The position numbers and the translations under genes are program-made. Below the pieces are notes generated by a model. That model worked only from the letters and a program-made list of their open reading frames with translations. It had not been told where the DNA came from and did no database searches. Below are positions 44,060 to 62,584 of a DNA stretch of 64,000 nt, piece after piece. How positions within the stretch are numbered: position 1 is the first letter of the stretch; the number at the start of each line of letters is the position of its first letter. The DNA is taken from positions 256,001 to 320,000 of the forward strand of contig CAWJQC010000007.1 of the NCBI GenBank assembly GCA_963844965.1. The letters run 5' to 3'. Source of the DNA: an uncultured bacterium. GTDB taxonomy: Bacteria > Patescibacteriota > Minisyncoccia > UBA6257 > 2-01-FULL-56-20.

Positions 44060-44150
44060 GTAAAGTTTAAAAATCAAAATTTAAAATGACAATGTAAAAT
44101 TTAAAAATTTAACTGCAATTTTACATTTTGATATTTGCATTTTAAATTTT
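44060..44150. repeat. AT-rich TAAAAT/ATTTTA inverted repeat array upstream of tRNA-Glu (probable promoter region)
   Basis: aaatttaaaatgacaatgtaaaatttaaaaattt ... aattttacattttgatatttgcattttaaattt. Confidence 0.4.
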
Positions 44151-44156
44151 TGCGAT

Positions 44157-44228
44157 GGCGCATTCGTCTAGTGGCCAGGACAGGTGGTTCTCATCCACCA
44201 AACAGGGGTTCGATTCCCCTATGCGCTA
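44157..44228 (+). tRNA. tRNA-Glu (anticodon CUC)
   Basis: Hand fold: acceptor GGCGCAT/ATGCGCT (G1-U72 wobble), D stem GTCT/GGAC, anticodon stem GGTGG/CCACC with loop TTCTCAT, T stem AGGGG/CCCCT with TTCGATT loop; the island starts immediately after it. Confidence 0.7.
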
Positions 44229-44359
44229 CATTCAGCTTTCGTTATCGAGGAGACGCGGTTGCGTCCATTTGTGCTACATTTTCCAAAGATGTTGGCAAGT
44301 AAATTAGAAGAGAGTAGGCTATATTGCGGATAGTAAAATAGCTGTTTCGATACAAAAGC

Positions 44360-46500
44360 ATGCTAGAAAAGATAACCTCAATCAAAAATGTGGGTCGGTT
44401 CCGCAACAGTCCTGCTACTGGTGACGTGACTTTCCGTCGCCACACAATGATATTCGCCGAGAACGGGAGGGGTAAAACAACTCTTTGTGCCATCCTACGC
44501 TCGCTGTCCACCAACACACCCGCCTTCATCATCGGGCGCAAGACGTATCGGCGGCAACGGTCAGCCGGAAGTCCAACTACTTCTCAACGGCGACTCCGTA
44601 ACATTTCATGATGGAGTTGGAGTGCTCCGTTCCCGAACGTGGCGATCTTTGATGGGACCTACGTCAGCGAAAATGTGTTTGCGGGTGACGTGGTTGATAC
44701 CGAAAACCGACGTAACCTTTACCGCGTTATTATTGGTGCTCAAGGCGTGGCTCATGCTGGCCGACTCAATGATCTCGATAACCAGATCAGGACTAAAAAT
44801 AATGAAATCAGGGATGTCAGAGCGCGGATGCAACCTCATATGCCGCCAGGTACAACAGTTGAAGATTTCATCGCCTTACCCGAAGATGCGACAATCAGTG
44901 AGAAGATTTTGGCGAAAGAACAGGAACTTCAAGCGGTACAACGTGCTGCTCAGTTACAGCAAAAACAGGGTCTAACAGCAGCTGCGGTACCGACCTTTCC
45001 CGCATCATTTGCTGAGACTCTTGGCAAAACTCTTGAGAATCTTGGGGCAGGCGCCGAGAAGCTTGTCGCCGATCACATTTCACAGCATCAAATGCGAACG
45101 CATGGGGAGACTTGGCTGAGGGATGGCCTCCCTTTTGTGGTCGATGAGTCATGTCCATTCTGCGGGCAATCGCTTGTAGGCGTCGATTTGATTCAGGTAT
45201 ACAAAACTTTTTTCAGCAATGAGTACCACGCGCTGCGTAGTGAAGTGATGAAACTAAGTGCGCAGGTTGAGGGTGTGCTCGCGGAGCGTGTATCTGCGGC
45301 AATTGAACAAACGCTTTTACAGAACAGCAACAACGCCGAGTTCTGGCAACAATATTGTGATTTCGTGCCGCCCGTTCTGCCGGGAGCGGAAAGGCTTGGA
45401 GAAATTATCACCGCGCTCCGGCAATCCGCTCAGTCTCTTTTACAAATAAAGTCGGGGGCACCGCTTGACGCAGTGCCACCGGACGAGGGATTCACTAAAT
45501 CACTTGTCGCATTCGAGGCCTTACGCACCTCCCTAGCCAACTATAATGCCGCAGTCGCCGCAGTAAACGTCACAATTGAAGCCAGAAAGCGTGCTACGCA
45601 GGCAACGAATGTGCGCGAAGTTGAAAATGCGGTCGCCAAACTGAAGGGGCAAAAGAATCGCTATACAGTGGGCGTGCAGGAACTTTGCGCGACCGAGACG
45701 CGTCTACAGGGTGAAAAGAAAATTCTCGAAAACGAAAAAGCGCTGGTGCGAGGTCAACTGGACACTCATACGGGACAGGTAATCACCCAATATGGCCAAA
45801 TCATCAACCGTTTTCTGGAGCGGATAAATGCGGGATTCAGAATCACTGTGCCATCACACAACTACCGTGGAGGAACGCCGAGTACGAGCTACCAGATTCT
45901 TATCAATCAAAATGCGATTGATTCTTGGAGACGCAGCGACGCCGACAGACAGACCGAGCTTCAAGAACACTTTGAGTGCTGGCGACAAAAGCACATTGGC
46001 TCTCGCATTTTTTCTGGCACAACTTGAGCAGGATTCGGATCGTGCTCAAAAAATAGTCGTTTTCGACGATCCTTTCAGCAGTATGGATAGTTTTCGAAGA
46101 AATCATACGATCCATCAGATATCCAAATGCGGGGAAACATGCGTTCAAGTAGTCCTTCTTTCGCACGAACCATCATTTCTAAAATTGCTGTGGATCGTGG
46201 GCACCGGCAGACCGGAAAACGCTCCAGCTGGCACGTGTAGGAGAAGAGAACACCGTCATCATTGAATGGGATATCGAGAAAGCGGTCCAGGCACGTTATC
46301 GGGCCGATATAGAAGCGTTGCAAGGATTTTTTTCATTGGGCAAAGGCGATCAGCGGGAGGTGATTCAGAAGCTACGACTGGTGCTTGAGGCGTATTGCCG
46401 AACACTCTATCCAACGCTCATCGGTGAGGATACATTAGGTGTCATTGTAGAAAATCGGCCACGGCAGCTACACAATTCCCCTCCATCTATCGCGGGATGA
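44360..46500 (+). pseudogene. AAA_13-family (RloC/PrrC-like) ATPase gene broken by at least 4 frameshifts
   Basis: Pieces in four frames: Walker A IFAENGRGKTTLCAIL, NVAIFDGTYVSENVF, zinc-hook-like CPFCGQSL, SFKNTLSAGDKSTLALAFFLAQL, Walker B IVVFDDPFSSMD, H-loop LLSHEPSFL, and a C-terminal helical region. Confidence 0.6.
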
Positions 46501-46996
46501 TCCTCCAATCAATATATTTATTGCCGTCGCTGTATCATGGTGAAAGCCCCGCTGCTGCGACCGATATATCGACGATGCAGAGCTCCAAGGATATGTCGCA
46601 CGCACTCTGAAACTCGTTGGATGTCTTTAGCGCAAACTCCTATTGATAGCATCATACAAAAACTTGCCGGATTATCCGTTCCGAAGCTAGTGAACTTTTA
46701 TTCGGCCTTCAAGCTTATGACCTTATCTCTCACCACAAACTTGCTCTTGATGAGCGAGAGTAATTCTCGTTTCTCGGTGGGATTACCGTCATTTAGTACA
46801 TATGCTGCGTATCATCTCGCGTCGAATTCGGCATCATCCTGCTTTATCGCTCTCACACCTAGGAATGATTTCTGGAATTTGGCGACGCGTTTTGTTTCCT
46901 CGATAAAACGCTGTTTGATATCGGACTCGTTAATATCCAATTTGCCAATTAATCGATAAGCTGTTTAGTGAGCTCATCTTCGCGCATATATTTGTT

Positions 46997-47957
46997 CTAA
47001 CAGAACGTATCTCGCGACCGACAGCAACCGTAGTAGACGTACTTGGTCGTCGTACCGTCTTTAAGCTTCTTGAATTTCTCCTGTGCGCTAATGGTCGACC
47101 CGCAGAGGCCGCAGGTGAATAGTTTCGTAAAGGCGAATTCCTTGACCTCAGCATTTCTGAAAAGACTATCTTGCTTTAGTTGTTCCTGGGTTGCTTCGAA
47201 TATTTCTCTTGTGATGAGTGCCTGATGTTTCCCGGTGTACCAGTTACCGCTCCCTACGGGGTATTCGAATACACCGTAATAAAAGGTGTTTTGGAGCAGC
47301 CGATAAAGATTGCCCAGTGCCAGATGTTTGTTGCCTGAATTTGTTCGGAAATTAACTTCAAATTTGAGCCAATGAAATAGCTTCCTGCCGCTCCAGCCAT
47401 TGGCCACCTTCTCAAACATCTGTTTAACGACCGGGGCGCGTGCGGGGTCGATTATGACGCTACCTTTACGATCGACACGTTTCTCGGTCAGATATCCAGT
47501 AGGAGCCTGCGCGGGCCACAGCCCCATTTCGCAGCGCATCCGCAGTCCTCGCTTCACGTTTACACTCTTATTGTCGTTTTCAAGCTTCGCCTGAGAGCAT
47601 AGGATCATTAGCAAGAACTTTTCGTTCGGTGAGTTGGCAAATCTTTGTCCGTAAGTTCGGATCTCATGAGTAACTTCTGATCCATGAGATCCACGAGGAT
47701 CTGAGGTCGCCCGCGTTCCTACTTAACCGATCCGGTGCCCATGTGAGAATTCCTGTATATCGGCCGCTTCTAATATCCTTCAAAATTTCCAGAAACACCG
47801 ACCGCTCGCCTGAGCTTTTTGCCGAGTGGGATTCCCGCCGGATGTCGACAATTTCCAATGCTTCGCGTTCGGCGATAAGAAGCATCTCCTTAATTTGCGA
47901 ATCAATGGAGAGAATCTGTTTTTCTTCCGACTCAGTGCTCTTTCTCGCATAAAGCAC
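46997..47957 (-). pseudogene. Decayed large serine recombinase (frameshifted, C-terminally truncated)
   Basis: ORF 47664..47957 is the resolvase N-terminus (YARKSTE...SIDSQ); ORF 46997..47614 is the recombinase domain plus zinc ribbon; about 65 percent identical to the intact copy at 57135. Confidence 0.65.
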
Positions 47958-48151
47958 GTATTTGACCTTTACCTCGGGCGGGATTGTTGTAGGGTCCCGC
48001 TCCCTGCGCCCCCGTGGTTTGGGTGGTCATACCACAATGGATGACGCAACCTCGCCAGAGAGTCCAGACCCCCTGAAAGACCCCAAAAGCCCTACCTAAG
48101 GCGAGCGCTAAATCGCTATAAAAATCGTCTAAATTAAGCTAAAATGGTGCT

Positions 48152-50943
48152 ATGGCACTGAGCTGGAACGAATTCGATCACGAGCTACTGGCTTCGCAAA
48201 AGAGTATGAATCGGCGAAACGCCGAGATACAAGATTACGCCGATTTTTCGACAGATTTTTTTAATATCTTTGGCGTCCGGCGTCGTTCGGTTTCTATCTA
48301 TCAAAAAGCGGTCCAAAAGATAAATGGCAACACGGGATTTATTAATCTTTTTTGGCCGAGTGTATTGCTCGTTGAACATAAGTCGAAAGGAGAAAACCTC
48401 GACAGCGCCTTTCTCCAGGCAAGCGATTACATCTTAGGACTCCCCGAGGAGGAAAGGCCCCGCTACGTAATTGTCTCTGATTTTGAGCAATTCGTTTATA
48501 TGATCTCGAAACGGAAAGTGAAAAAACTGAAATTCACGATATCGCGTTATCAAAACTCGCGTCGCATATACGCCTCTTTGGATTTATAGCTGGCTATAAA
48601 GTACGTAAATATAAAGAGGAAGACCCCGTCAATAAAAAGGCGGTGCGTTTGGTCGTGCAGCTATATCAGGCGCTGTCCGATGGAAATTACCCGAAGGAAT
48701 ATCTCGCGCGTCTTATGGTCCGTTTCGTGTTTCTCTTTCTTCGCAGACGATGCGGGTATTTTCCCAAAACGTGATATTTTCCGTGATTATATGCTTTATC
48801 TCACCAAGGAAAATGGTGAGGATCTCGGTGGGCACTACATCAAATTTTCGAGATTTTGAATACCCGGAGGATAAGCGCCAGCAGGCCCTTTCTGACGATC
48901 TAAAAGACTTTCCCGTATGTGAATGGGACTCTTTTTAAGGATCCCTTACCGCTGCCGTTTTTCAATAAGGAAATGCGGAGCGAAATTATCCGCGCAGCGC
49001 AATTCGATTGGGGCGCTGTGTCGCCTGCGATCTTCGGTTCGATGTTCCAATTCGTGATGGATGTTGAGGACAACGATATACGGCACGACTTTGGGGCGCA
49101 TTATACTTCAGAAAAAAATATCTTGAAGGTTGTGGACGGCCTCTTTTTGGACGATATAAAAAATGATCTTGAGGCCGCGGGTCAGAATCGGGCAAAACTG
49201 AATGCTCTGTGGGAAAAGATCGCCGAGATGCGGCTTCTCGACCCCGCCTGTGGTTGTGGGAACTTCCTTGTCGTTGCCTATCGAGAACTCAGGGTTGTCG
49301 AGCTTGAAATCATCACACGCCTGTTTCGAGATGAGTTAAAGCGGCTAGAGCAACCAACGCTTGGTATCAAAACCGATGTCTCAAAAATCTCTAAGCTTAC
49401 TCTCGAGCACATGTTTGGCATAGAGATTCTTTCGTTCCCGGCGGAGATCGCCCGTCTATCGTTGTGGCTCATTGATCATCAGATGAACGTTATGCTTGGA
49501 AGTCTATTCGGGGAATATTTCGCGAAGCTTCCTCTTAAAGAGCAACCCCATATTTTTCACGGAGATGCGCTTGCTGTTGATTGGGCGCGACTTGCGCCAC
49601 AAGGAGATAATTTTTCTTATATCCTTGGCAATCCACCCTTCATCGCGAAGCAAGATAAAGTCCTGATCAAAAAGCTGATATGCATAGAATATTTGGCGAC
49701 TTGAAAGGCGCGGGCGAATTAGATTATGTAACGGCATGGTATGCAAAGGCGGCCGATTTCATTCAAGGGACCGGAATCCATTGCGCCTTTGTTTCAACCA
49801 ACTCGATTACCCAGGGAGAACAAGCTGGAATTTTATGGCCACTATTGCTCCAGAAAGGAGTCCATATCAATTTCGCGCACAGAAACATTTCGTTGGACAA
49901 ATGAAGCCCCTGGGCGAGCTGGTGTGCATTGTGTCATCGTCGGTTTCTCGCTTGAAAAATCGGCTAAGCCGCTTTTATGGGACTACGACGATCCAGCCGG
50001 AAATCCCCATCTTGTAAAAGCAAAAAACATTAATCCATATCTTGTCGATGCTGATGATATTGTCGTTTTACCCCGACGGAAGCCGCTCGCCGATGTCCCG
50101 GAAGCGCAATTCGGGAGCATGCCGAACGACAGCGGATTTTTACTCTTTGATGACGGGGCCAAAAAGGAAGAGTTTTTACTTCAGGAGCCGGGAGCTGAAA
50201 AGTTTATCCGCCCGCTCCTTTCCGCAAAGGAATATCTAAATGGATCTCTGCGATATTGTTTGTGGCTTAAAGAGGCAACACCTCAAGAATTGCGTTCAAT
50301 GCCGTACCTCATGCGTCGCGTTGAAGCCGTACGAACGTATCGCGATCTTTCTTCCCGAGCGGCAACTCGCAAACTTGCCCGAACACCCTACCTTTTTGGA
50401 GAAGATCGACAACCAGAAGGTAATTACGTTCTGATCCCTCGGGTGAGTTCTGAAAGGAGGAGATACATTCCATTTTCGTTTTTTGGGCCGGAGTATATCG
50501 CTGGTGATACCTGTATCATAGTTCCAAATGCCGCTCCTTATCATTTTGGCGTCCTCCAATCCGTAATGCATATGACATGGATGCGTGCAGTGTGTGGACG
50601 CCTCGAATCTCGATATCGCTATTCAAACGAATTAGTTTATAACAATTTTCCGTGGCCGAAGGATGTTTCTAATGAACAACGGGCGTCGATAGAAAAAGCG
50701 GTGCAAAATTTATTGGACGTTCGCAAGGGATGTCGCGGAACACTTGCGGATCTGTACGATCCAAACGTGATGCCGCGAGAGCTTCTCGAAGCCCATTCGG
50801 CACTCGATAAAGCAGTCGATAACGCCTATGGCATGTTCCGTGGCTTCCCCTCGGAAGCTGAGCGATTGAAATTTCTGTTTAAATTGTATGAAGACTACCT
50901 CCGTGCGGAGCCTACCCAATTCGAGCGTAAGGTTAAGAAATGA
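48152..50943 (+). pseudogene. MmeI-family Type IIL restriction-modification enzyme gene (nuclease, gamma-class N6-adenine MTase, TRD) broken by at least 5 frameshifts
   Basis: Family signatures read across frames: N-terminal PD-ExK region LLVEHKSKG; linker motif LFGFIAGYKVRKYKEEDPVNKKA; FPYVNGTLF; HYTSEKNILK; LDPACGCGNFL (motif I); ILGNPPFIAKQ (motif IV); C-terminal TLADLYDPNVMP...LDKAVDNAYG...ERLKFLFKLYE. Confidence 0.65.
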
Positions 50944-50964
50944 CGGCACCAAATTCAAAAAATA

Positions 50965-53830
50965 ATGGAGTACGTCATCCTCGATATCGAAACTACTGGC
51001 CTAGATAAGGAACATTCTTCTATTATCGAGATAGCTGCTATCCTCGTAGAAAAAGGAGGTGTCAAAAATAGTTATAGCTCTTTTGTTCATTATGATGGCG
51101 TTCTCTCGGAAACCGTAAAGCGGCTAACTGGCATCCAAGAAGAAGATACTCAAAAAAGCTCCACTAATAGCTGCTGTCATTTCTGAGTTGAAAAATTTTA
51201 TTCAGAAGCGACCCGTTGTTGCTCATAATGGATATTCCTTCGATTTCTTTTTTCTTGAACGGGAGGGGCTGAAACTGGAAGAAAAATATGACTCTATGGA
51301 ATTTGCCTTTTTTGTCATGCCCACGAACGCTCCTGGCCATTCGATCCCTGCGCTCGCGGAACAATTTAAGTTAGGCGAAGCTCCGCATCGGGCGCTCGGG
51401 GATTGCAAGCTCGAACTCACAATAATCAATCGTCTTCAAAAGGAATATGGAAAGAGAAAGAAATCAAAACGAGAAGTTCTTGCTCATGCCGCAGGAACGA
51501 CAGGATGGTGGTGGTCCAATTTCCTCTCGGGAGAGAAAGCTCCTACTGATCGAATTTCAAGCCTCATTGAGGCTTATGAGCCATACCGCAAAGAATATCG
51601 CGGGGCAGAAATGCTGGGATTTCAAACAGAAGTGATCGATATTGCAGAGGTTGAAAAATATTTTCAACCAGCGGTAAAAGCGGGCGAGAAAAACGGAGAG
51701 GATGATTACTCGGAAGATCGACCCGAACAACGAGAGATGGCGAAAATGGTAGCCACGGCGTTTAACAAGCATAAGCATGCGGTCATAGAAGCCGGTACAG
51801 GCACCGGAAAATCAAAAGCATATCTCGTGCCGTCGCTCCTTTTTGGACTCAAGAACCGCATACCGATGATCATATCGACCCATACCAAAGCACTCCAAGA
51901 TCAGTTATCCCTCAAAGAAATACCGCACATAAAGAATCTCATTCGGCCCGATCTGCGCGTTGCTGTTCTCAAGGGAAAACAAAATTACGTCTGCTTGGCA
52001 AAATTCGAGATTTTTGCCGAAGAAACTGTGAAGGAGCTTTCGCAACGATCCTTGTATGAGTTTGGTGAATCGGAAACTCGGTATTCAACACGCCTCGCTT
52101 ATTTATTGCTCTTCTCGTGGATTCTTGAAGCTGAGTATGGCGATTGGGACGAGCTGCCATACTGGATCAAAGAGCGGATTCCCAAATATATACAAGCCGA
52201 AATCTGCAATATCGATGAGCTTTGCGGCAATGGGACTTGCGACATCTATGACGCAGAAAAATGTTTCCTTGCTAAGGCCAGGCTTCGCGCACGTGATGCC
52301 GATCTTGTGATTGTAAATCACGCGCTTGCTCTTATGGGCATCATTATTGAGGATAAGACTCCCGAAATACCCAGTGAGCCAGGCGTCGATGTGCCTCCGA
52401 GTAAAATGTATAGTCATACGGTCTTTCCTAACGAGTCGAAATTCATCGTATTCGACGAGGCCCAACATCTTGAGGACGACGCAACTTCGGCATGGGAGCA
52501 TGTGCTCTCCCAGAGTTTCCTACAACTAATTCTCCAGCAACTTTATGGTAAGCGAGGCGTCCAGCAGCTTGTAAAATCTATCGCCAGCAAAAAAACTGAT
52601 GAACGACTCACGCGGCTTGCAGCAAATTTTGAGAGTGGCGAAGGCAACATAAAAATCGGCGTCGAGGCGCTTTTTAAAAATATCTTACCGCACCTCGTTT
52701 CCGAAAGTGATACACGGGAAACTTATACTATGCTCGATGAAATTCCCGATACCTCTCCGGAGCGGAAAGCGCTATTCTCTGAGCTACGGAGCTTGCGGCA
52801 ACGATTTCTTGATATTGCAAGAATATTAAGTGAATTTTCGGAAGAAACCGAAGTTCCAAGGATGCGCAAAACCCTTTCCGTCCGCTACAACACTCTTCAA
52901 CGGATCGTGCGCTCATTCGATGCCATTCTAGAAAACGATAACGTATATGTGAGATACCTCCAGCGATTCGGTTCAAGCGTTGAAATTAAAGCTGCTCCAC
53001 TCTCGGTCGGTCCATACCTGAAAGATTATGTCTACGATAATTTTGCTTCGGTAGTTATGACCTCGGCGACACTCACTGTCGGCAAACGGTTCAATTTCTT
53101 CGCGAGCCGCTGTGGGACATTATTAGTCGACAAAGAAAAGATTGGGTACAGACTTTTCCATTCCTCCTTCAACTACGAGAAGCAAGTTAAATTTTTTGTT
53201 CCGAAAGGAATTAACTATAAAGAAGATCGCGAAACCCATCTTGCGAAAAGCACTGAGTTTCTTAAAAAAGCGATTGTCGCCTCCGGCGGAGGCGCGCTCG
53301 TGCTTTGCTCAAGCCACGATCAGGTCGGAGAACTTTACCAAGGGCTCTCAAAGACACTTTCTGAAAACAATATTTGGCTTCTCCGGCAGCAGAAAGGCAT
53401 ATCAGTAAGCTCCGTCATCAGAGATTTTAGAAGGGACGTCGATTCGGTGCTTATTGGCACCGAGACCCTCTGGCAGGGCATCGATGTTCCCGGGGAATCG
53501 CTCCGCAGCCTTTTTATTTATAAGATTCCATATCGAATGCCTGGCCTTCCTCTCATCAAAGCCCGCCGGAAAGAGATTGAAGATAACGAGCGGGATAGCT
53601 TTGCCGAATATTATGAACCGCTTGCCGCTCTAATTCTCAAGCAGGGATTCGGGCGGTTGATCCGCAAATCCACTGACATCGGTATCGCCGTACTTCTCGA
53701 TGAAAACTTTCTTAAAAAGCCGAGCCTTATGAACTCCCTTCCGGAAGGCGTCCACCCTCAAGCTGCCGAGCCGGAAGCTATTTGCGAAGAACTTCATAAA
53801 TTACACTTGTTGCGACTGAAGGAGAGTTAG
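50965..53830 (+). CDS. dinG: DinG-family ATP-dependent helicase with an N-terminal DnaQ-like 3'-5' exonuclease domain; frameshift at about 51150
   Basis: Exo I ILDIETTGL, Exo II VAHNGYSFDFFFL, Exo III HRALGDCK; helicase Walker A AGTGTGKS and DEAH-like VFDEAQHL; the N-terminal 73-aa ORF and the 880-aa ORF join across an A6 run. Confidence 0.75.
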
Positions 53831-53862
53831 CCACAAGCCAGAAAATCAGCTATGCTTTTTCA

Positions 53863-54333
53863 ATGGACGCAACATTCGTAAAAGACCTCATCAAGGGGAA
53901 GATTGCCGAAATTATATTCGAGCAGATGTTTCGTGAGTCCGGCGAGTATACAATTCTCCATTCTGGCTATGAATATACCCTGCCCGAACTCGCGCAGTAT
54001 CAACATCTCACCGAGATAAAAGCAGTGATTGAGAACATAAGGAATGCGCCAGATTTCGTTTTAATTTCGCAAGATAAAAAACGGGTTTATCTCGTGGAGG
54101 TGAAATATCGGCGCAACCGCAATCCGCGCGAGCTAAAAAAAATTTGTGAAAATACCCTTCAGATCTGGAATCCTTCGTGGCTTTTTGTAGCATCTCCTGA
54201 TGGATTTTTCTTTGAGCCCTGCAACGATGTGGTCAACAAAAATGATGGGCAGATTGGACCCCTCTACGATAAGTGGGTAAAAAACGATGTTCAATCGGAA
54301 TATCTGAAACTCCTGAATCAGTTTGAGCTTTAA
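53863..54333 (+). CDS. Small PD-(D/E)XK nuclease-fold protein
   Basis: E..PDFVL...YLVEVKYR pattern (E, PD, ExK); 156 aa. Confidence 0.4.
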   Translation: MDATFVKDLIKGKIAEIIFEQMFRESGEYTILHSGYEYTLPELAQYQHLTEIKAVIENIRNAPDFVLISQDKKRVYLVEVKYRRNRNPRELKKICENTLQIWNPSWLFVASPDGFFFEPCNDVVNKNDGQIGPLYDKWVKNDVQSEYLKLLNQFEL

Positions 54334-54340
54334 ATTGAGA

Positions 54341-55841
54341 TTAACCAATCTCTTTTTCCAAGTTCTCCAATATGCGTACCATCGCCATCGTGTCGAGGCC
54401 ACAATAGAGCAGCATGTCCCGCTTGAGTTTTTCCTTTTCAGCTAGTGGCGTCTTGGAATCCGTAAGCCGCGGCCAGCTGACAGACGCCGTGCTCCCTTCC
54501 TGAATGGCGAGATTCTGATACGAAAGTTCGGGCACGAGGACCGGGAGAATCGCCTTGATGGACGCGCTCCCATGGAAACCTTGCATCCACGAACATCTTT
54601 TTCTTAAATATAAGCATCAGGTCGTAGACGCGGTTGTTCACCGCCTCCATGAAATCGGCATATTCTGGATATTGCTCTCCGATCTCCTTATTCCTTGGCA
54701 CTTCGAATGGAGCGAACCATACGATGACAGTTCCTTTCGTGCCGATATCCGTTTTGAGTTGCGCCACCATCTCCGGAATGGGATTTGCGTCCTTCACCGC
54801 CAAAAACTCCTTTTGCTCCGCCTCGGCCTTGGGCGTTTTCTTAATGTGAAGTGAGTATTGAAAAACTATCTTCTGCCACGGACGCGTGCCGTCATAGGGT
54901 GGTATGGGTGAGGCAAACGTTTCATAATCCAAAAAGTAGATTGGGTAAACGAGCGCCGCGAGTTCCTTTTTTATCATCGCGGCATCCATCGTTTTTTCCA
55001 CTGGCGTATACCCAAGGCCACGCAGAAATACCGCAGAGAGCGAATTCGCGTCAAGAGTTCCTTTTTTCAACAAGCTGAGGGTGAAGGCTGGTGGCCAGTT
55101 CTTGACATCCAATTTTTTTGCCGGGGCCTTGGAGAGGTAAAATTCCAAGTGGTCGCACGAACCAGTCTTCGACTTGCACGAAAGGATAACGCGATTGTCC
55201 GGGAAGTCCTCGATGGCGAGGAGGGCGAGGGAATCTGCTATGCTTGTTTTAATCTCAGGCACAAGATCACGCGCCTCATCAGTCACATCCTCAGTTATAA
55301 AAAACTTCTTGGGCTCTACGTTCCCTTTCCGTACATATTCATTGTTTACATGAATAATGAAAGTTTTCCCCACTTTGATGCCAGCTTCTTCAAAACAAAT
55401 GAGCTGGAACGCAACATCGCGTAAGTCCTCCGGCCGAACCTTTGTTGCACTCTTCACCTCGCGGATATCGTAAGCATCCGCCGTTTGATCATAGGTCACA
55501 ATATCTGCGCGGCAGGTCAATCCGGTCTTTGTGACGACGGTCGGCTGGAAAATAACTTTTTGTTTTTCGTCAAAGAGTGTTTTGCTTTTGCGCCAACCTT
55601 CCTCGTTAAAATCAAAAAGTTCTATGCCATCCTTATAGAGCTGCTTTGCGAGTATATCCACCTTTTCACCTTCCTGTTGATGGAAGATCTCTGATGCCGA
55701 GGGAAGCGGCATAAGATGTTTGCCTTTTCTCGCCATCCAAAGGTAACAACCGCATTCGAGAAAGTTCTTGTAGTCGGTCTTCGTGAACAGTTTAGCCATA
55801 GTTAGTTCTTCATTTCTATCACGTTGAGCAGCTTTTCGCAA
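54341..55841 (-). CDS. DUF2779-family protein (Cas4/RecB-like nuclease N-terminus plus DUF2779 C-terminus); frameshift near 54600 in an A-run
   Basis: N-terminus LFTKTDYKNFLECGCYLWM; YFLDYETFASPIPPY; C-terminal piece GSASIKAILPVLVPELSY lies in ORF 54341..54586 in another frame. Confidence 0.55.
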
Positions 55842-56095
55842 AAGATGAAGGGACGTCAGGAACCCTCAAAAAATATTGTCAAACTGGCTCCAAACGTGAT
55901 ACCTTTTAGGTAATTGAATATCAGATAGATCGCCTAAACCACGCATTTTGCATGGCATGGCATTACGCAGAATCTCCCTTCCAGATACCAAACGCCACGT
56001 TTGGCGACTTCTGGAAGGGAGTCACTCCGAAAGGGGTGGGGCCGCAAGGCCCAAGCCAGCGTGGCGTTTTGTGTTCTCTATTTTAAAACAAACCC

Positions 56096-57007
56096 ATGGC
56101 CTTATTCTCCATCTCAAACGGCAGCACGAAGAAAATATCATCCGTGAAAATCGGGCTTGAAAAAGACGTCCAAAAACTCTTCGAGAAAAACCTTGAGGAG
56201 ATTTTGAATATCACATTCCTAGCATCAGAGTATTCAACGAGCTTCGGCGGACGAATCGATACGCTGGGTATGGATCATAACGGAGCGCCAGTGATCATTG
56301 AATATAAGCGGTCGCAAAATGATAGCGTCATCAACCAAGGCCTGTCATACCTCCGATGGCTTCTTGATCACAAAGCGGATTTTGAAGCGCTGGCGCACCG
56401 ATTAAAAATTGAGATTGAAATTGATTGGGCTTCTCCGCGCGTTATCTGCGTGGCCGAGAGTTACAATAAATTTGACCTCGATACCGCCGATCTTCTGCCG
56501 ATGAACATAGAACTGTTACGCTACAAGATTTATGAACAAAACATTCTTCTCGTTGAACCAGAAGTGCAACGCAAAATAAAAATATCCACGTCGGAAGTAT
56601 TCGAGAAAACAACGCGGGAGAGGCACGAGTTTAAAGAACAGATCAAACACACCATCGAAGATCATTTGAAATCAGCAAATCCCGCCATCCGCGATCTTTT
56701 TGCCGCCATGAAAGAGAAAGTTCTTGCGCTTGACGAATCAATCAGCGAGGAGCCGAAAGCGCATTACATTGCCTACAAACTGGTGAATAATTTTGTGGAT
56801 GTTGCGGTGCAAAAGGACGCCTTAAAAATTTTCCTCAACATCACGAGCGGCGCGTTAAATGATCCGACATCTCTGGCCCGCGACCTTACTAAGCCGAAAC
56901 CCGTTGGCCACTGGGGTAACGGCGACTACGAACTCAAGCTTGATCAACGGGAAAATCTCAATGCTGTGATGGCGCTCATCAAGCAAAGTTACGAATACAA
57001 CAAGTAA
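56096..57007 (+). CDS. NucS/RecB-like PD-(D/E)XK nuclease-fold protein with a C-terminal DUF5655-like domain
   Basis: GRIDTLGMDHNGAPVIIEYKR...QGLSYLRWL pattern; 303 aa. Confidence 0.45.
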   Translation: MALFSISNGSTKKISSVKIGLEKDVQKLFEKNLEEILNITFLASEYSTSFGGRIDTLGMDHNGAPVIIEYKRSQNDSVINQGLSYLRWLLDHKADFEALAHRLKIEIEIDWASPRVICVAESYNKFDLDTADLLPMNIELLRYKIYEQNILLVEPEVQRKIKISTSEVFEKTTRERHEFKEQIKHTIEDHLKSANPAIRDLFAAMKEKVLALDESISEEPKAHYIAYKLVNNFVDVAVQKDALKIFLNITSGALNDPTSLARDLTKPKPVGHWGNGDYELKLDQRENLNAVMALIKQSYEYNK

Positions 57008-57134
57008 AGCCCTTGTTCAGAAATACTGAAAATCCCCGCTGTAAACCAGAGGAGGTTTTCGGTTTCTTTTTCCATCCGCCCTAAAATAGCGCGGCGATTT
57101 TTCGTGTTCAAAAATAAACTAATTTATCATCACT

Positions 57135-59063
57135 ATGGCAAAACGAGGAAGACCGCCGAAAAATCAATTGACGGTCGCGCAACCAAAAACCGAATGTGCT
57201 CCGGACATGAGTAGTCTCAATAAGATGCCGAAGTATTGTTTGTACGCGAGGAAGTCATCGGAGAGCGAAGAACGGCAGGCACTCTCCATCGACTCACAGG
57301 TCAAGGAGATGTATAAGATCGCGGAGCGCGATCATCTCTCGGTCGTTGAAGTACTGACCGAATCACACTCTGCAAAAAGCACCGGATGCCGACCGATCTT
57401 TAACCAGATGGTTATAGGTGTTAAGGATGGCCGCTTTGAGGGCATTCTTACCTGGGCACCGGATCGTCTGAGTCGCAACGCAGGCGACTTGGGCCAGCTG
57501 GTCGATCTTATGGACAACGGCCATCTTGCGGAAATCCGCACGTTCGGGCAGATATTCAAAAATTCGCCCAACGAAAAATTCTTGCTTATGATTCTCTGCT
57601 CACAGGCGAAACTCGAAAATGATAACAAGAGCGAGAACGTGAAGCGAGGTCTCCGTGCTGCCGCCGAGCGAGGATATCGCCCAGGCGTCGCACTTGTGGG
57701 ATACACGAACAGTTATCGCAGGGATCATCCCGGCGAAGTGGTAATTGATAAACTGCGAGCCCCAATCATAAAGCTTATGTTTGAGAAAGCCGCAAATGGA
57801 TGGTCAGCGCGGAAGTTGGTGGTCTGGCTTCGCGGTATCAACTTTACGACGCGCAACGGAACATATCTCTATCTAAGCAGTGTTCATACGCTGTTGCAGA
57901 ACCACTTTTACTACGGCACGTTCGAATACCCTCGGGGCAGCGGCGCATGGCACAAAGGAAATCATAAACCGCTCATTACCAAGGATATGTTCGACCGTGT
58001 TCAAGCGCAGATTGAACGACGGCGCACCTCGCGCCGCTCGGAGCGGAAATCTTTTGGATTCACCCAGCTCATGCATTGCGGCATCTGTGGCTCCGGCGTT
58101 TCCGCCGAAGAAAAATTTAAGAAACTGGTAGACGGTTCACAGGCCCGCTATGTCTACTACGGATGCAATCGTTCCAAGGGGGTGAAGTGTACCAATACTT
58201 ACATCCGTGAGGATTTTCTGGTCCGGCAGTTTGTGAACATCATCGACGAGATATCGCTCGACGAGCTTGGCATACGAAAACTTCTCGGCGAGGAAACTGA
58301 GCGTGTCTTTCGGTTTCACAATGATGTCATGGGCGATCCTAACGCTTCGGAAACTCAAGAGAAAAAAGATATCGACATTAAAACCTACGCTAAATATCTA
58401 CTCGCAAGAGGCAACGCCGAAGAAAAAAGATTACTACTATGCAACATTCAGAACCGACTGATCCTTCGGGATAAAGCCGTATATCTGGAAGAAGTAGGCG
58501 GTCTTACCTGGAAGGACTATATTGGCCATATGAGAAAGTGCGCGAACTGCGGATCAAAAAACGTGAACGAGAGCGGACCGTATGCGAACTGGAAATTCGG
58601 CGATACGCCAATCGACGACACGCCGCGGATCGTGTATTTCGCTTGTCTCGACTGTGAGCAATCGTGGAAGCAGGTCAACGAGAATATCTTGCGATTAATG
58701 CGCGAGTATGTGGTGGTGCCAGAGGGAAACGGGGCGTGGATTAAAACACCTGGCGGCTCGGAGTTTTTCGCGACGCCGTCTTTCGCCGCGCGGTTCAGAG
58801 ACACGGTGGAGATAGACGGCAAAAAAGTGCCACCGAAAAAAATTCTCGGGGAAATGCTGTACTGGCCAGACAGGAACGCTTACGAGACGACGATCGAATA
58901 TGACGACGGAAGCGAACGGACATTTGATATCCCAAGTCTTCGTGGCAGGAACAATACAGAAGAAGGCATGAAGCCGATCAGCAATAAGGATGGTCTTATG
59001 GAGTACAAAGAAGGTAAGATGCAAACTTATTTCGGTCGCGGTCTCCAATATGACGGCCGATAA
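57135..59063 (+). CDS. Large serine recombinase (phage-type serine integrase)
   Basis: Resolvase catalytic domain (LYARKSSESEERQALSIDSQ), recombinase domain, Cys-rich zinc ribbon (CGICG...CNRSKGVKC) and a coiled-coil C-terminal region; 642 aa. Confidence 0.85.
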   Translation: MAKRGRPPKNQLTVAQPKTECAPDMSSLNKMPKYCLYARKSSESEERQALSIDSQVKEMYKIAERDHLSVVEVLTESHSAKSTGCRPIFNQMVIGVKDGRFEGILTWAPDRLSRNAGDLGQLVDLMDNGHLAEIRTFGQIFKNSPNEKFLLMILCSQAKLENDNKSENVKRGLRAAAERGYRPGVALVGYTNSYRRDHPGEVVIDKLRAPIIKLMFEKAANGWSARKLVVWLRGINFTTRNGTYLYLSSVHTLLQNHFYYGTFEYPRGSGAWHKGNHKPLITKDMFDRVQAQIERRRTSRRSERKSFGFTQLMHCGICGSGVSAEEKFKKLVDGSQARYVYYGCNRSKGVKCTNTYIREDFLVRQFVNIIDEISLDELGIRKLLGEETERVFRFHNDVMGDPNASETQEKKDIDIKTYAKYLLARGNAEEKRLLLCNIQNRLILRDKAVYLEEVGGLTWKDYIGHMRKCANCGSKNVNESGPYANWKFGDTPIDDTPRIVYFACLDCEQSWKQVNENILRLMREYVVVPEGNGAWIKTPGGSEFFATPSFAARFRDTVEIDGKKVPPKKILGEMLYWPDRNAYETTIEYDDGSERTFDIPSLRGRNNTEEGMKPISNKDGLMEYKEGKMQTYFGRGLQYDGR

Positions 59064-60845
59064 GCGTTGCCAGATGGCAAAATAACATCGCCGCTTCCGG
59101 AGGAATTGCTTGGAGTAGGGCTTGGCGGTGCACTTGCCGATGGAGATCCGTCGCTGGTCTCGGATGGTCCATTTCGCGGAGATGGTCCCAACGCCGCAGG
59201 CCGATGAGTACTGTCTGCGGAATTGTCGCCAGTGTTCGGCGGCGGTGGCGTAGAACGCGGAGCAAGACCCCATACTTGTAAATTGCCGAGGAGATCGGGG
59301 AGATTAACGCTGTAGCTGTCCGTGGGCAATGGCTCGGTATTTCTGCTGCGGCCCATGATCTCCACCTTGCCCGTATCCAGGTTAAGCCGCCCAATCACTG
59401 GCAACTGGCCATTCTCTCCAATCACGCTGTTCGCCATGAGGGTAAATGCGTCACAGAGGTCATCGAACCGCTCTATGCCAAATCCAATGAGCTGTTGCTT
59501 CAGGTGTGAATTCTCCGGGTCCGGCGCGAAGAGTATTGTGCCATTCTGAATAAGAGCGCTTGCGGTCATAAGCCGGGCGTGTTTGTCGGTGGCGATCTTT
59601 ACGCCGATCACCCTGCAATGTTTGGATTTTTCGAGGTACTCGATGGCCGACCGTTGATAGGCCACATCCTCGATCCGTATCTCGACCGCGCCGCAAAGCT
59701 TCGTGTACATATCATGGAGTTCCTTGAGGAGCTCCATCGTTTCAAGGAACGCCATCCTGCGGTTAATCGTCTTGATGACATACCCGTGGAAGTCCTTGCC
59801 GAATCCGGCGAAGAGGCCTACGACGATGCCCGTGTAATCAGCGGTTTCTTTTTCCGAGATCGCGAGGTCGACCCCGATGACCACCTTTTTGATTTTCTCT
59901 TTCGGCAATACTACCCAGTGCTTGATCCATTCCGCTTGGATCACGCGCTCGTCGCTCGTGACCGTTTGGAGTAAAAATTCCCTGCGCCACGTAGTGTCGT
60001 CACCGATCTTCCGTTTGAACGCCTCAAGTGCCTCGGGCGTCTTGAACTTCTCTGGCCACTGGCATACGCCTTCATCGTCAACGAGCGGATACCGCCGAAA
60101 GACACCACCACGCTCGCCTTTTTTGATTTGCTCGATAACGCGGCCGAGCAGGGAAAATTCGTGCAAGAAATTCCCGATGAGAAAGATCTTTGTCTTTGTC
60201 GTGCCCAACGGAATTATTTCCGATACGAACCAGCTATAGATGCGATCGCGGTTTTCTTTTGTCCGCGTCCCTTGCAGATCTTGCGGATCGTCTACGATCA
60301 CATAGTCCGGGCGGTATTGCTTGTAGCGCAGACCGCGCACTGCCTGTTGGGACGAGATCGCAATTATTTTTGCATCGAATTTCCTGAGGGTCATGCCGAA
60401 CGCGCCGCTCTCGTCGCCCTCCATATCGATCGGTCCGAAATCATTTCTGAGGAGGGGCGATTCAAGCGCCTTGCGGATGTTGGAGAAATGCGTCCGCACC
60501 TGATGGAGCGTATCGGACGCGATCACGATAAAGTGGGCGCGACCGCTGAGGATCAGACCACAGAGAGAATGACGTATTGAGAATCGCGCTCTTCCCGGAA
60601 TTTCTGAATCCGGCGATCACATAGAGATCATTGTCGTTCGACTCGGTAAGGCGAAACATATCTCGGTGAAAGTCCGCCATCGGGTCTTGGAGGTAGTCCG
60701 CAAGATAGATGTTAAAAAACATCGCGTGCGACCACTGGCCAAGCTTGCGCCGCAGGAGGCGGCTCTTGCGGATGATGTCGATGAAGAAATTGAACTTATC
60801 GGCATTGTTACTGTTGTCACTACTAGGAATTGGTAGGTTGTCCAT
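59027..60845 (-). CDS. Phage terminase large subunit (ATPase plus nuclease); frameshift near 60500
   Basis: N-terminal ORF 60462..60845 has Walker A GFRNSGKS; ORF 59027..60526 has Walker B PDYVIVDDPQD and nuclease GVDLAISEKETADYTGIVV. Confidence 0.65.
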
Positions 60846-61251: not shown

Positions 61252-62584
61252 TTAGATCTTTTGAGGCTTGATGCCTGTTATGCGCTCGACTCTTTTTAGG
61301 ATCACGGTGAGGTACACCGGAGATTTCTCCATCAGATAACAGCGGCGTTGCATTTTTAATGCAGCAGCCCATGTGGATCCGCTGCCCCCGAATGGCTCAA
61401 GGACGAGGTCGTTGCGCCTCGTAAGCACCTTGATATAGGGAACCAGGATCTCCACGGGCTTCGTGCCGAAAATGACGCCCTGCCCGGAATTCTTTTCGTC
61501 CGAGGCGACATGCTCGATGAAGTCCGTAGGGCAAAACTTTTTTCCTTTTTCGTAGGACTCCCATTGCGGTTTCCCCGAGGTGGCAAACAACGCGTTTTCG
61601 TACTCGTTCTGGAGCAGCTCATCGCCCTCGTCGTCAAGGTTCAGCACCACTTCACCGCCGGTTCCCACAAGCGCGATGTCGTGCTTGTTGAAGAATTTGT
61701 ATTTCGCTGCAAAACCGGAGACACGATTCGGAAGATGCCACGTGATCGTGTTCCGATATTTCCAATGTTGTTCTAGGGCGTTCCATATAGTCCGTAGATT
61801 CTTCGGATTTTCGAACACAATGATGGAGAAGTCTGGCTTTTGCACCTTGGCTACATTCGCCATCCAGAGATCCGTAAAATTCTCCGGCAGTGATTCCGTC
61901 TCGAGATACCTGCGATCGCGCTTCAAACCGAACCCCTCCGTCGCTTTGCCGTTGCGCTTCTTGCCGTGGAGGTAATCCAAAAGGTAAGGGGGGTCGGTGA
62001 AACAGAGATTCGCCCGCTCGCCGTTCATGAGTTTCATGATGTCGGCCTCTACTGTGCTGTCCCCACACATCGCCCGGCTGCCGTTCAGCTCGAACACGTC
62101 GCCCTTTTGAATCTCTATCTTGTCGATCTGGAGCTTCTGCAACTCCTTCGCGAGGTCAAATTCTTCTGGCGTTTCATCGAGCGCGAAGATTTTATCCAAC
62201 TCTTCGCTTGAGAACCCAATATCTTTCAAGATGGATTCATCGAACTCTGCGAGGGCCGCGATATCAAATTCGCCCGTGTTTTTGTTCAGCCGAATTATGA
62301 TCTCGGCCTCCTTCTCTGGATCAGGAACGTTGATACGAACGACAGGCACCGTCTCTACACCCATCTCGATCAGTACCTTTGCGCGGAAGTTACCGCCGAG
62401 GATCACGCCTTCGCGGCCCGGCGCACTGTTAATGACTAATGGATCGATTATGCCGTGGCGCTCGAGACTCGCGCAGTTGAGTGTTTGCCTCCTTGGTCCA
62501 TAGGCGAGGGTTCCTTTCGGGATGGCGTAGCGAAGCGAGAGGAACGTAATCGATCTTCAACTTTTCTTGTATGTCTTGGTCCAT
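61252..62584 (-). CDS. ParB-like nuclease domain fused to a DNA methyltransferase (phage-type); frameshift near 62470
   Basis: ParB N-terminus KIDYVPLASL...GIIDPLVINSAPGREGVILGGNFRAKV spans two frames; MTase motif IV CFTDPPYLL and motif I EPFGGSGST. Confidence 0.65.

What the first reader, a model, noticed from the sequence alone, without database searches (positions are those of the whole stretch)
50965..57007. Nuclease-rich four-gene cluster (Exo-DinG helicase plus three PD-(D/E)XK-fold proteins) between an RM locus and the integrase: candidate uncharacterised defence module
An 880-aa DnaQ-exonuclease-DinG helicase is followed by a 156-aa PD-(D/E)XK protein, a convergent DUF2779 (Cas4/RecB-like) protein and a NucS-like PD-(D/E)XK/DUF5655 protein. 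All sit inside the island beside the MmeI-type RM locus, which is the typical context of defence islands. DinG-family helicases take part in known defence systems such as type IV CRISPR, but this exact combination is not one I recognise as described. The helicase alone could be the housekeeping Firmicutes-type DinG, so the system call is an inference from context.
Basis: inference. Interest (0 to 1): 0.6.

Follow-up and report, generated by a model that had tools for sequence, protein, structure and literature searches.

The report
Mosaic nuclease cargo, not one system
The four helicase and nuclease genes are real, but they are independently shuffled cargo genes in a mobile island of a Patescibacteria (CPR) genome, next to a restriction enzyme, and not a single new four-gene defence system.

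Summary
All four genes are present as described: an ExoDinG helicase-exonuclease (50965-53830), a 156-aa PD-(D/E)XK protein (53863-54333), a convergent DUF2779 Cas4-like/DEDD nuclease (54341-55799) and a NucS-like/DUF5655 protein (56096-57007). DinG and DUF2779 each carry one frameshift. So do ftsI, MmeI and other genes in the window, and an independent assembly differs only at homopolymers, so these are probably sequencing errors.

The four genes do not form one system. In 80 genomes carrying the 156-aa gene, DinG and the DUF5655 gene were never within 10 kb, and DUF2779 was adjacent in 3 (one gene away in a fourth). In 8 other loci of the DinG clade, DUF2779 and DUF5655 never occurred. Related elements carry different subsets: recombinase+p156+terminase; DUF2779+DUF5655+recombinase; MmeI→p156; methylases+terminase+DinG.

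The region is the variable cargo of an integrative island that starts at tRNA-Glu. It contains two divergent large serine recombinases, a terminase and a ParB-methylase. Gene 4 is already catalogued as PADLOC candidate PDC-S18. The DinG belongs to a rare, FeS-containing ExoDinG clade that lay beside restriction or other defence genes in eight of the nine loci seen. The 156-aa gene is a CPR-restricted family that flanks slots filled with varying defence genes. The defence-island context is supported; the four-gene module is not.

The parts
44157..44229 (+). tRNA-Glu(CTC). Left edge of the island, directly after murF of the mraZ-rsmH-ftsL-ftsI-murF cluster.
   Evidence: ARAGORN; host genes 39137-44100.
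44330..46265 (+). AAA_13 / PDC-S06-like ABC-type ATPase, split by frameshifts. The left coordinate is approximate.
   Evidence: Pfam AAA_13 and PADLOC PDC-S06 at 1e-30. Homologues lie next to DinG-clade genes in L166 and L167.
46997..47957 (-). Large serine recombinase A, seen as frameshifted fragments (Resolvase N-terminus 47664-47957; Recombinase domain 46997-47614). It diverges from recombinase B.
   Evidence: Pfam. Inverted nucleotide similarity to 57429-57655. 64-84% identical to recombinases in L079, L167 and L255.
48152..50943 (+). MmeI-family type IIG restriction-modification gene, split into at least 3 ORFs in this assembly.
   Evidence: Pfam MmeI_N, MmeI_Mtase, MmeI_TRD, MmeI_C. PADLOC REase_MTase_IIG profile positions 3-136, 259-494 and 571-908 of 912. 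An intact 905-aa homologue sits directly upstream of p156 in L015.
50965..53830 (+). ExoDinG: N-terminal DEDDh 3'-5' exonuclease plus an XPD/DinG-type SF2 helicase with a 4-Cys FeS domain. One frameshift near 51147. It starts 21 nt after the MmeI stop codon.
53863..54333 (+). p156: a small PD-(D/E)XK nuclease of a CPR-restricted family with no Pfam or PADLOC model.
54341..55799 (-). DUF2779 protein: Cas4-like PD-(D/E)XK N-terminal half plus a DEDD RNase-H-like exonuclease C-terminal half. One homopolymer frameshift at about 54575.
   Evidence: PMC13621843 and PMC3985635.
56096..57007 (+). PDC-S18 family protein: NucS-like PD-(D/E)XK N-terminus plus DUF5655. It lies directly upstream of recombinase B.
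   Evidence: PADLOC 3.9e-97; Pfam and NCBIfam; plasmid homologues; a 75% homologue in the same position before a recombinase in L255.
57135..59063 (+). Large serine recombinase B (642 aa).
   Evidence: Pfam Resolvase, Recombinase and Zn_ribbon_recom; phrog_95 integrase.
59027..60845 (-). Terminase large subunit homologue, split into 59027-60526 and 60462-60845.
   Evidence: phrog_38 at 3e-55; homologues in L079, L177 and L255.
61252..62406 (-). ParB-like domain fused to an N6/N4 DNA methyltransferase.
   Evidence: Pfam N6_N4_Mtase; phrog_498 and ParB phrogs; homologues in L079, L167 and L177.

Best explanation
The 6-kb stretch is not one machine. It is part of the variable cargo of an integrative island in a Patescibacteria (CPR) chromosome. 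The island starts at tRNA-Glu, downstream of the dcw cluster. It contains two divergent large serine recombinase genes, a terminase homologue and a ParB-methylase.

The four genes are separate one-gene modules that have been assembled by recombination between related elements:

(i) A rare ExoDinG clade with an FeS domain, sitting 21 nt behind an MmeI-type restriction enzyme.
(ii) p156, a strongly conserved CPR-only PD-(D/E)XK nuclease. It recurs beside slots that hold different defence genes in different genomes.
(iii) A DUF2779 'solo Cas4 + DEDD' double nuclease.
(iv) PDC-S18, a NucS-like/DUF5655 nuclease that PADLOC already lists as an untested single-gene defence candidate.

Inferred mechanism (not shown here): each gene acts autonomously on foreign or damaged DNA. 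The ExoDinG most likely loads on single-stranded or nicked DNA, translocates 5'-3' using ATP and degrades 3' ends. In that way it would process DNA that neighbouring restriction enzymes have cut. The PD-(D/E)XK proteins would cleave DNA directly.

Shown: domain content, conserved catalytic residues, independent assortment and island context. Inferred: defence function and substrates.
For: Independent assortment.
- In 80 species-level loci with a p156 homologue (±10 kb), DinG was found in 0, PDC-S18 in 0, DUF2779 adjacent in 3 (one gene away in a fourth) and MmeI adjacent in 1.
- In 8 distinct DinG-clade loci, DUF2779 and PDC-S18 were found in 0. p156 was found in 2, once 3.2 kb away on the other strand and once as a truncated remnant.

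Mosaic table.
- L079: recombinase + p156 + terminase + ParB-MTase, none of the other three.
- L255: terminase + DUF2779 (81%) + PDC-S18 (75%) + two recombinases, without DinG or p156.
- L015: MmeI directly followed by p156.
- L177: methylases + terminase + DinG.

Island context.
- tRNA-Glu lies at the left edge.
- Two recombinases; terminase and ParB-MTase.

p156 neighbours vary. They include type IIG and type III RM, PDC-S06, Old/GajA, mad3, DpnI and AbiLi. A serine recombinase lies within 4 kb in 14 loci.

DinG clade.
- About 80 proteins at 48-64% identity, then a drop to about 30%.
- Every locus is different. Neighbours are type ISP, IIG and III RM, PDC-S06, GmrSD, Ppl-like, DpdB-like and Dsr1-like genes.

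PDC-S18 homologues occur alone on 54 plasmids of unrelated phyla. One is embedded between hsdS and hsdR.

Catalytic residues are invariant across the DinG clade: D7, E9, D93, H141, D146; GTGKS; DE at 497-498; Cys 343, 420, 425, 433.
Against: - Two sub-associations exceed chance. p156 and DUF2779 are adjacent in 4 of 81 p156 loci counting the window, three of them operon-like. DUF2779 and PDC-S18 recur together in L255/L256.
- p156 lies near 3 of 9 DinG-clade genes, counting the window.
- Some functional coupling of pairs therefore cannot be excluded.
- No experiment shows a defence function for any of the four genes.
- DinG and DUF2779 are frameshifted in this assembly, so inactivation cannot be formally excluded for DinG.
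- Only 64 kb of the genome is visible.
- Only 9 DinG-clade contexts could be retrieved.
Confidence: 0.7

Rival explanations
1. One reading: the four genes form one co-functional, undescribed defence system, with a helicase-exonuclease and three PD-(D/E)XK nucleases working together.
For: The genes are tightly packed (gaps of 32 nt, 7 nt and 296 nt) inside a defence-rich island. All are predicted nucleases or a helicase.
Against: The quartet was not found anywhere else. No locus has three of the four genes. Each gene occurs many times without the others. Orientation is mixed (+,+,-,+). PDC-S18 occurs alone in phyla that lack p156 entirely.
Confidence: 0.04
2. Partial coupling. Some adjacent pairs are functional units. 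ExoDinG would serve as an accessory of the neighbouring restriction enzyme, degrading DNA after cleavage. And/or p156 would work with DUF2779.
For: DinG-clade genes sit co-oriented, with short gaps, next to RM-type genes in 4 of 9 loci: the window (MmeI→DinG, 21 nt), L166 (type ISP RM→PDC-S06→DinG), L172 (DinG→type III MTase→Old-like→REase) and L168 (DinG→x→type IIG-like). p156 and DUF2779 are adjacent in 3/80 loci, with overlaps or gaps under 30 nt (L055, L072, L075), and one gene apart in L074.
Against: The RM partners belong to different types and are non-homologous. In L015 MmeI abuts p156 with no DinG. 76 of 80 p156 loci lack DUF2779. The two DUF2779-anchored loci lack p156. Gene order and orientation of the pairs vary.
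Confidence: 0.15
3. The genes are the mobile element's own DNA replication, recombination or packaging helpers, not host defence. They would be a helicase-exonuclease, an Hjc-like resolvase and a Cas4/RecB-like exonuclease.
Against: The genes assort independently of the terminase and recombinase backbone. p156 was absent from 2.9 million viral contigs. p156, DUF2779 and PDC-S18 have no PHROG family. Most p156 loci have no recombinase nearby. PDC-S18 homologues are embedded in type I RM operons.
Confidence: 0.1
4. The DinG is simply the housekeeping Firmicutes-type ExoDinG of this bacterium, and its neighbours are incidental.
For: It has the same domain architecture as S. aureus and B. subtilis ExoDinG. 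Its best NCBIfam hit is PRK08074 DinG.
Against: Scores are below the curated cut-offs: 457.6 vs 789, and 338 vs 547.7. It belongs to a small clade of about 80 proteins separated by a drop to about 30% identity from mainstream ExoDinG. No synteny is conserved in 8 other loci, and eight of the nine loci, counting the window, have MGE or defence genes alongside. It lies between two recombinase genes.
Confidence: 0.04

Closest known systems
ExoDinG subgroup of DinG-like SF2 helicases (S. aureus DinG, PDB 8zef/9ii8; B. subtilis DinG, NCBIfam PRK08074)
   Same: An N-terminal DEDDh 3'-5' exonuclease is fused to an XPD/DinG helicase core. It is the best PDB and NCBIfam match. The biological role of the subgroup is still open (PMC11981726, PMC12345164).
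   Different: About 30% identity or less, and below the equivalog cut-offs. It keeps four invariant Cys of the FeS domain, which S. aureus DinG lacks and E. coli DinG has. It is carried on mobile or defence islands rather than at a fixed chromosomal site.
CasDinG / Csf4 of type IV-A CRISPR-Cas
   Same: DinG-family helicase used in defence. It hits the PADLOC 'typeIV_DinG' associated model at 8e-98.
   Different: TIGR03117 Csf4 scores 73 bits against a cut-off of 400. The window has no CRISPR array and no csf genes among the PADLOC hits. CasDinG has no DEDDh exonuclease domain.
PADLOC PDC-S18 (single-gene 'phage defence candidate' from guilt-by-embedding; bioRxiv 10.1101/2024.01.29.577857)
   Same: Gene 56096-57007 matches the PDC-S18 HMMs over its full length, at 3.9e-97 and 4.1e-80. 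Plasmid homologues are annotated as DUF5655 proteins, and one sits between hsdS and hsdR.
   Different: Only 34-38% identical to the plasmid members. Here, and in L255, it sits directly upstream of a large serine recombinase. The family itself is untested.
DUF2779 / 'solo Cas4 + DEDD' nucleases (e.g. MMSYN1_0389 of JCVI-syn3.0; UU173 family)
   Same: PF11074 at 120 bits. A Cas4-like PD-(D/E)XK N-terminal half plus an RNase-H-like DEDD C-terminal half (PMC13621843, PMC3985635).
   Different: The Mycoplasma member is quasi-essential and chromosomal. This one is island cargo with 76-81% relatives in related elements. It has Cys pairs at both ends of the Cas4-like half, read directly from the sequence.
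Defence-gene hotspots of prophages and satellites (P2/P4 hotspots, PMC9122126) and defence islands on integrative elements
   Same: A conserved element backbone (recombinase, terminase, methylase, p156) with slots where unrelated defence genes are exchanged.
   Different: The host is a CPR bacterium. The backbone uses large serine recombinases. The conserved slot-flanking gene is a PD-(D/E)XK nuclease of unknown role.
Archaeal Hjc and other minimal PD-(D/E)XK nucleases
   Different: 6-17% sequence identity. No sequence-family membership in Pfam, NCBIfam, PHROGs or PADLOC. It has an extra N-terminal helix and a C-terminal helix.

Membership tests
Single multi-gene defence system (the proposed four-gene module) | The component genes co-occur across genomes. 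| tested here: not met
   p156-anchored loci: DinG 0/80, PDC-S18 0/80, DUF2779 adjacent 3/80 plus one locus one gene away. DinG-anchored loci: DUF2779 0/8, PDC-S18 0/8, p156 2/8. DUF2779-anchored loci: p156 0/2, DinG 0/2.
Single multi-gene defence system (the proposed four-gene module) | Conserved gene order and orientation (operon). | tested here: not met
   Strands in the window are +,+,-,+. Where pairs recur, their order and orientation differ.
Single multi-gene defence system (the proposed four-gene module) | Recognised as a multi-gene system by a defence database. | tested here: not met
   PADLOC HMMs give only the single-gene PDC-S18, RM type IIG, PDC-S06 and a generic DinG-associated model. 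p156 has no significant hit. The full PADLOC and DefenseFinder system rules could not be run.
ExoDinG (DinG-like helicase with an N-terminal exonuclease) | DEDDh exonuclease domain with catalytic residues. | tested here: met
   D7, E9, D93, H141 and D146 are invariant in 30 clade members. RNase_T is found in homologues. The domain aligns to S. aureus ExoDinG residues 6-348.
ExoDinG (DinG-like helicase with an N-terminal exonuclease) | SF2 helicase core: Walker A, DEAH box and Helicase_C_2. | tested here: met
   AGTGTGKS and D497-E498 are invariant. Helicase_C_2 at 3.8e-34.
ExoDinG (DinG-like helicase with an N-terminal exonuclease) | Reaches the curated equivalog score (PRK08074 / TIGR01407). 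| tested here: not met
   457.6 bits against a cut-off of 789, and 338.1 against 547.7. It has the same architecture but is a divergent clade.
Housekeeping dinG | Conserved chromosomal synteny in relatives; single copy in the genome. | tested here: not met
   8 other clade loci all have different neighbours, which are MGE or defence genes in seven of them (L086 has only a p156 remnant). Copy number in this genome could not be tested, because only 64 kb is visible.
CasDinG / Csf4 (type IV CRISPR) | Csf4 equivalog score plus neighbouring csf genes and a CRISPR array. | tested here: not met
   TIGR03117 scores 73 bits against 400. No repeat array was found in the 64 kb. No other Cas hits.
PADLOC PDC-S18 | Full-length match to the family HMM. 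| tested here: met
   PDLC04946 at 3.9e-97, residues 2-301 against profile positions 22-322 of 365. PDLC04945 at 4.1e-80.
PADLOC PDC-S18 | Demonstrated anti-phage activity. | not testable with these tools
   The source paper lists the 145 PDC systems as untested candidates.
DUF2779 (PF11074) Cas4-like/DEDD nucleases | PF11074 above the gathering score, with an N-terminal PD-(D/E)XK half. | tested here: met
   120.5 bits against 23.3. PADLOC Cas4 models match residues 18-195 at about 1e-4. A D...EVK motif is seen in the sequence.
PD-(D/E)XK nuclease fold (p156) | Conserved D...(D/E)xK motif and the restriction-endonuclease-like fold. | tested here: met
MmeI-family type IIG RM (the neighbouring locus) | All four MmeI domains in one polypeptide. 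| tested here: inconclusive
   All four domains are present, but spread over at least 3 ORFs. The splits are probably assembly indels, since ftsI and DUF2779 are also split and L001 differs at homopolymers.

The most novel reading that the evidence does not exclude
The FeS-containing ExoDinG clade (about 80 known members, mostly CPR) is itself an anti-phage or anti-plasmid effector. It would travel as single-gene cargo of integrative elements and act stand-alone or downstream of neighbouring restriction enzymes, as an ATP-driven helicase feeding a 3'-5' exonuclease that destroys cleaved or replicating foreign DNA. This would give the long-uncharacterised ExoDinG subgroup its first biological role. 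In parallel, p156 would be a CPR-specific nuclease marking exchangeable defence slots.
Probability: 0.3. Interest if true: 0.6.

Novelty: new member of a known kind. Interest (0 to 1): 0.3.

Why it matters
As a four-gene system the finding does not hold, so it should not enter catalogues as a new defence system. Three things remain useful.

(1) It is a worked example of a defence and cargo hotspot on a serine-recombinase element in CPR bacteria, whose mobile elements and immunity are poorly charted.

(2) It gives genomic-context evidence that one ExoDinG clade lives in defence islands. That turns the open question 'what is ExoDinG for?' into a testable one.

(3) It identifies a conserved, unannotated PD-(D/E)XK family (p156, over 400 members). 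The family could serve as a landmark for mining variable defence genes in CPR genomes.

Tried and rejected
- Metagenome scan with the DinG-clade alignment. The back-translated patterns (KQGFGRLI, EAGTGxGKS) were generic. 79 of the 80 loci were ordinary DinG at 25-32% identity and only L086 was a clade member, so they were not used for context.
- Viral-contig scan for p156: no relatives.
- Viral scan for DinG: one clade member (L177), the rest distant.
- The small ORFs next to DUF2779 in L255 and L257 were tested as possible p156 homologues by profile comparison. Result: negative, probability below 1%.
- The 815-aa neighbour of p156 in Wolfebacteria was tested as a DinG. Result: not related.
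- Literature searches for 'PDC-S18' (0 papers) and 'DUF5655' (1 irrelevant paper).
- CRISPR-array search in the window: none found.
- Pseudogenisation of the island was considered. I rejected it as the main reading for three reasons. Essential genes (ftsI, murF) are split too. Each lesion is a single indel. An independent assembly differs from the window only at two homopolymer runs, one of which restores DUF2779.
- att-site repeats bounding the 6-kb cluster were sought. Only the inverted similarity of the two recombinase genes was found.

Full report
**What is there.** The window encodes, left to right:
- mraZ, rsmH, ftsL, ftsI, murF (39.1-44.1 kb)
- tRNA-Glu (44157-44229)
- an AAA_13/PDC-S06-like ATPase
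- a large serine recombinase on the minus strand (fragments 46997-47957)
- an MmeI-type IIG RM gene (48152-50943)
- the four genes of the finding
- a second large serine recombinase (57135-59063)
- a terminase large-subunit homologue (59027-60845, minus strand)
- a ParB-methyltransferase (61252-62406, minus strand)

These rest. The host looks like a Patescibacteria (CPR) bacterium, because every close homologue of the island genes and of p156 comes from CPR MAGs.

**Check of the observation.** All four genes are real and have the stated domains.

- *DinG.* It begins at the ATG at 50965 with a DEDDh exonuclease domain. A one-base frameshift near 51147 puts the remaining 880 codons in another frame. 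The corrected 954-aa protein has exactly the spacing of its homologues (TGIxExxLxxAP).
- *DUF2779.* It lies on the minus strand at 54341-55799 and has a frameshift at about 54575.
- *Fourth protein.* It is DUF5655 plus a weak NucS-like N-terminus, and matches PADLOC PDC-S18 at 3.9e-97.

**Are the frameshifts real?** Probably not.
- An independent 1.5-kb assembly of the same strain (L001) is identical to the window except for two homopolymer-length differences. One restores the DUF2779 frame. The other breaks DinG at a place where the window is intact.
- The corrected DUF2779 equals its 485-aa homologues in length and is 76-81% identical to them.
- Essential genes are split as well. ftsI is two ORFs here, and both match one 578-aa ORF in L079. 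murF, the recombinase, the AAA_13 gene and MmeI are also split.
- Each lesion is a single indel with no further decay.

For DinG itself there is no independent read-out, so a real recent frameshift cannot be excluded.

*Anchored on p156.* I retrieved 80 loci from different species (±10 kb) and searched them with all island proteins.
- DinG: 0/80.
- PDC-S18: 0/80.
- DUF2779: directly adjacent in 3/80, and one gene away in a fourth.
- MmeI: adjacent in 1/80.

*Anchored on the DinG clade.* I had 8 distinct loci (L086, L166-L169, L171, L172, L177).
- DUF2779: 0/8.
- PDC-S18: 0/8.
- p156: 2/8, once 3.2 kb away on the other strand and once as a truncated remnant.

*Anchored on DUF2779.* The closest relative (81%, L255/L256) has PDC-S18 (75%) 2.6 kb away, plus two recombinases and a terminase. 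It has no DinG and no p156. A second locus (L257) has only housekeeping neighbours.

*PDC-S18.* Homologues occur on 54 plasmids of Acinetobacter, Staphylococcus, Streptomyces, cyanobacteria and others. These are lineages in which p156 does not exist. One is embedded between hsdS and hsdR.

The mosaic table shows related elements carrying different subsets:

| Locus | Contents |
|---|---|
| L079 | recombinase + p156 + terminase + ParB-MTase |
| L255 | terminase + DUF2779 + PDC-S18 + recombinases |
| L015 | MmeI immediately followed by p156 |
| L177 | methylases + terminase + DinG |
| L167 | DinG + PDC-S06 + GmrSD + recombinase |

**What the pieces are.**

*(a) ExoDinG.* The architecture is the named 'ExoDinG' subgroup, whose function is unknown. 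The literature only speculates about defence (PMC11981726, PMC12345164).
- This protein belongs to a compact clade of about 80 proteins at 48-64% identity. Identity then drops to about 30% for mainstream ExoDinG.
- It scores below the NCBIfam equivalog cut-offs and far below Csf4.
- Unlike S. aureus DinG, it keeps four invariant cysteines of the FeS domain.
- Every retrieved locus is different. All but the short L086 contig carry defence or MGE genes within one to three genes: type ISP RM + PDC-S06; PDC-S06 + GmrSD + recombinase; type IIG-like + GmrSD; Ppl-like; DpdB-like + integrase; type III RM with an embedded Old/GajA-like gene; terminase + Dsr1-like.
- In four of the nine loci it is co-oriented with an RM-type gene and separated from it by short gaps.

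*(b) p156.* This is a CPR-restricted family of 428 proteins, 60-81% identical across nominally distant CPR groups.
- Its immediate neighbours are highly variable. They often include defence genes: type IIG and III RM, PDC-S06, Old/GajA, mad3, DpnI, AbiLi and Fic.
- The most frequent recurring neighbour is a large serine recombinase (14 loci within 4 kb), sometimes with a rolling-circle Rep.

*(c) DUF2779.* It is a Cas4-like PD-(D/E)XK domain fused to a DEDD exonuclease. It is a 'solo Cas4' of unknown role, and is quasi-essential in JCVI-syn3.0.

*(d) PDC-S18.* It is one of 145 untested candidates predicted by guilt-by-embedding.

**Most likely working.** The segment is cargo of an integrative island, assembled by exchange among related serine-recombinase/terminase elements. 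Each gene is an autonomous module. The following is inferred, not shown.
- The ExoDinG would translocate 5'-3' on single-stranded DNA and digest 3' ends. It is plausibly used on DNA already cut by neighbouring restriction enzymes.
- p156, PDC-S18 and DUF2779 would be DNA nucleases acting on foreign or element DNA.

**Residual signals that argue for some coupling.**
- p156-DUF2779 adjacency in 4 of 81 p156 loci counting the window, three of them operon-like.
- DUF2779 + PDC-S18 in one related element.
- PDC-S18 directly upstream of a recombinase in both the window and L255.
- PDC-S06 next to DinG in two loci and 5 kb away in the window.

These fit shared residence in one element family at least as well as they fit functional partnership.

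**Comparison with the known, and novelty.** The quartet is not recognised as a system: PADLOC has no model for p156, and I could not find the combination elsewhere. It does not behave as a unit. The individual genes are a divergent island-borne ExoDinG clade, a DUF2779 solo-Cas4, a PDC-S18 member and a new small PD-(D/E)XK family. The overall arrangement is a defence and cargo hotspot on an integrative element, which is a known kind of feature, seen here in a CPR genome.

**Verdict.** Interest is 0.3. The most novel surviving idea is that this ExoDinG clade is itself a defence effector. I put that at about 0.3 probability.

Noticed in passing
window 37719-57007 (ftsI 41087-42722; murF 42767-~44100; PurD-like 37719-39037; AAA_13 44330-46265; recombinase 46997-47957; MmeI 48152-50943): At least about ten genes in this 19-kb stretch, including essential ones, are split by single indels. 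An independent assembly (L001) differs from the window only at homopolymer runs. The contig probably comes from error-prone long reads and needs polishing before any gene is called a pseudogene.
   Followed up: partly
window 46997-47957 (-) and 57135-59063 (+): Two paralogous large serine recombinase genes diverge from each other and bracket the MmeI-DinG-p156-DUF2779-PDC-S18 segment. They share 77% nucleotide similarity over 125 nt and 60 nt. L255 shows the same divergent-pair layout with different cargo between the two genes. This could be two abutting elements or an invertible or exchangeable cassette.
   Followed up: partly
window 53863-54333; loci L006-L085: The p156 family (over 400 members, CPR only, no database model) repeatedly sits beside non-homologous defence genes: type IIG and III RM, PDC-S06, Old/GajA, mad3, DpnI. 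It could serve as a landmark for mining defence slots in CPR genomes. Its own function is unknown.
   Followed up: partly
window 56096-59063; L255 12592-15083: The PDC-S18/DUF5655 gene lies directly upstream of, and co-oriented with, a large serine recombinase both here and in L255 (75% and 49% identity). A Staphylococcus plasmid homologue also has a recombinase 1 kb downstream. This may be a link between the family and recombinases rather than, or as well as, defence.
   Followed up: no
L166 5763-10868; L167 8001-13183; window 44330-46265: AAA_13/PDC-S06-type ATPases are directly adjacent to ExoDinG-clade genes in two loci and lie 5 kb away in the window. This may be a recurrent pairing.
   Followed up: partly
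window 33907-35505: A 532-aa fusion of an N6/N4 DNA methyltransferase with a C-terminal Mrr-type restriction-endonuclease domain sits in a low-GC patch (0.43-0.46), just before rplJ. It looks like a second, separate RM-like insertion.
   Followed up: no
window 24377-25162: An IS3-family transposase OrfB-like ORF (261 aa) lies on the minus strand, with overlapping antisense ORFs.
   Followed up: no
window 42733-42759, 44076-44150: AT-rich repeats (ACATTTTGATATTTAAATTTTACATTT and an inverted pair) flank murF. The second set lies immediately before tRNA-Glu. They may be intergenic regulatory or terminator-like motifs.
   Followed up: no
window 55963-56032: An imperfect 23-nt inverted repeat (TTACGCAGAATCTCCCTTCCAGA / TCTGGAAGGGAGTCACTCCGAAA) lies in the 296-bp divergent intergenic region between DUF2779 and PDC-S18. 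It may be an operator or terminator.
   Followed up: no
L177 6572-7681 (-): In the viral contig that carries a DinG-clade gene, the gene directly upstream is a 369-aa protein with a weak NucS_C hit. It is a different family from PDC-S18 by tblastn. So a NucS-like nuclease sits next to ExoDinG in a second element.
   Followed up: no
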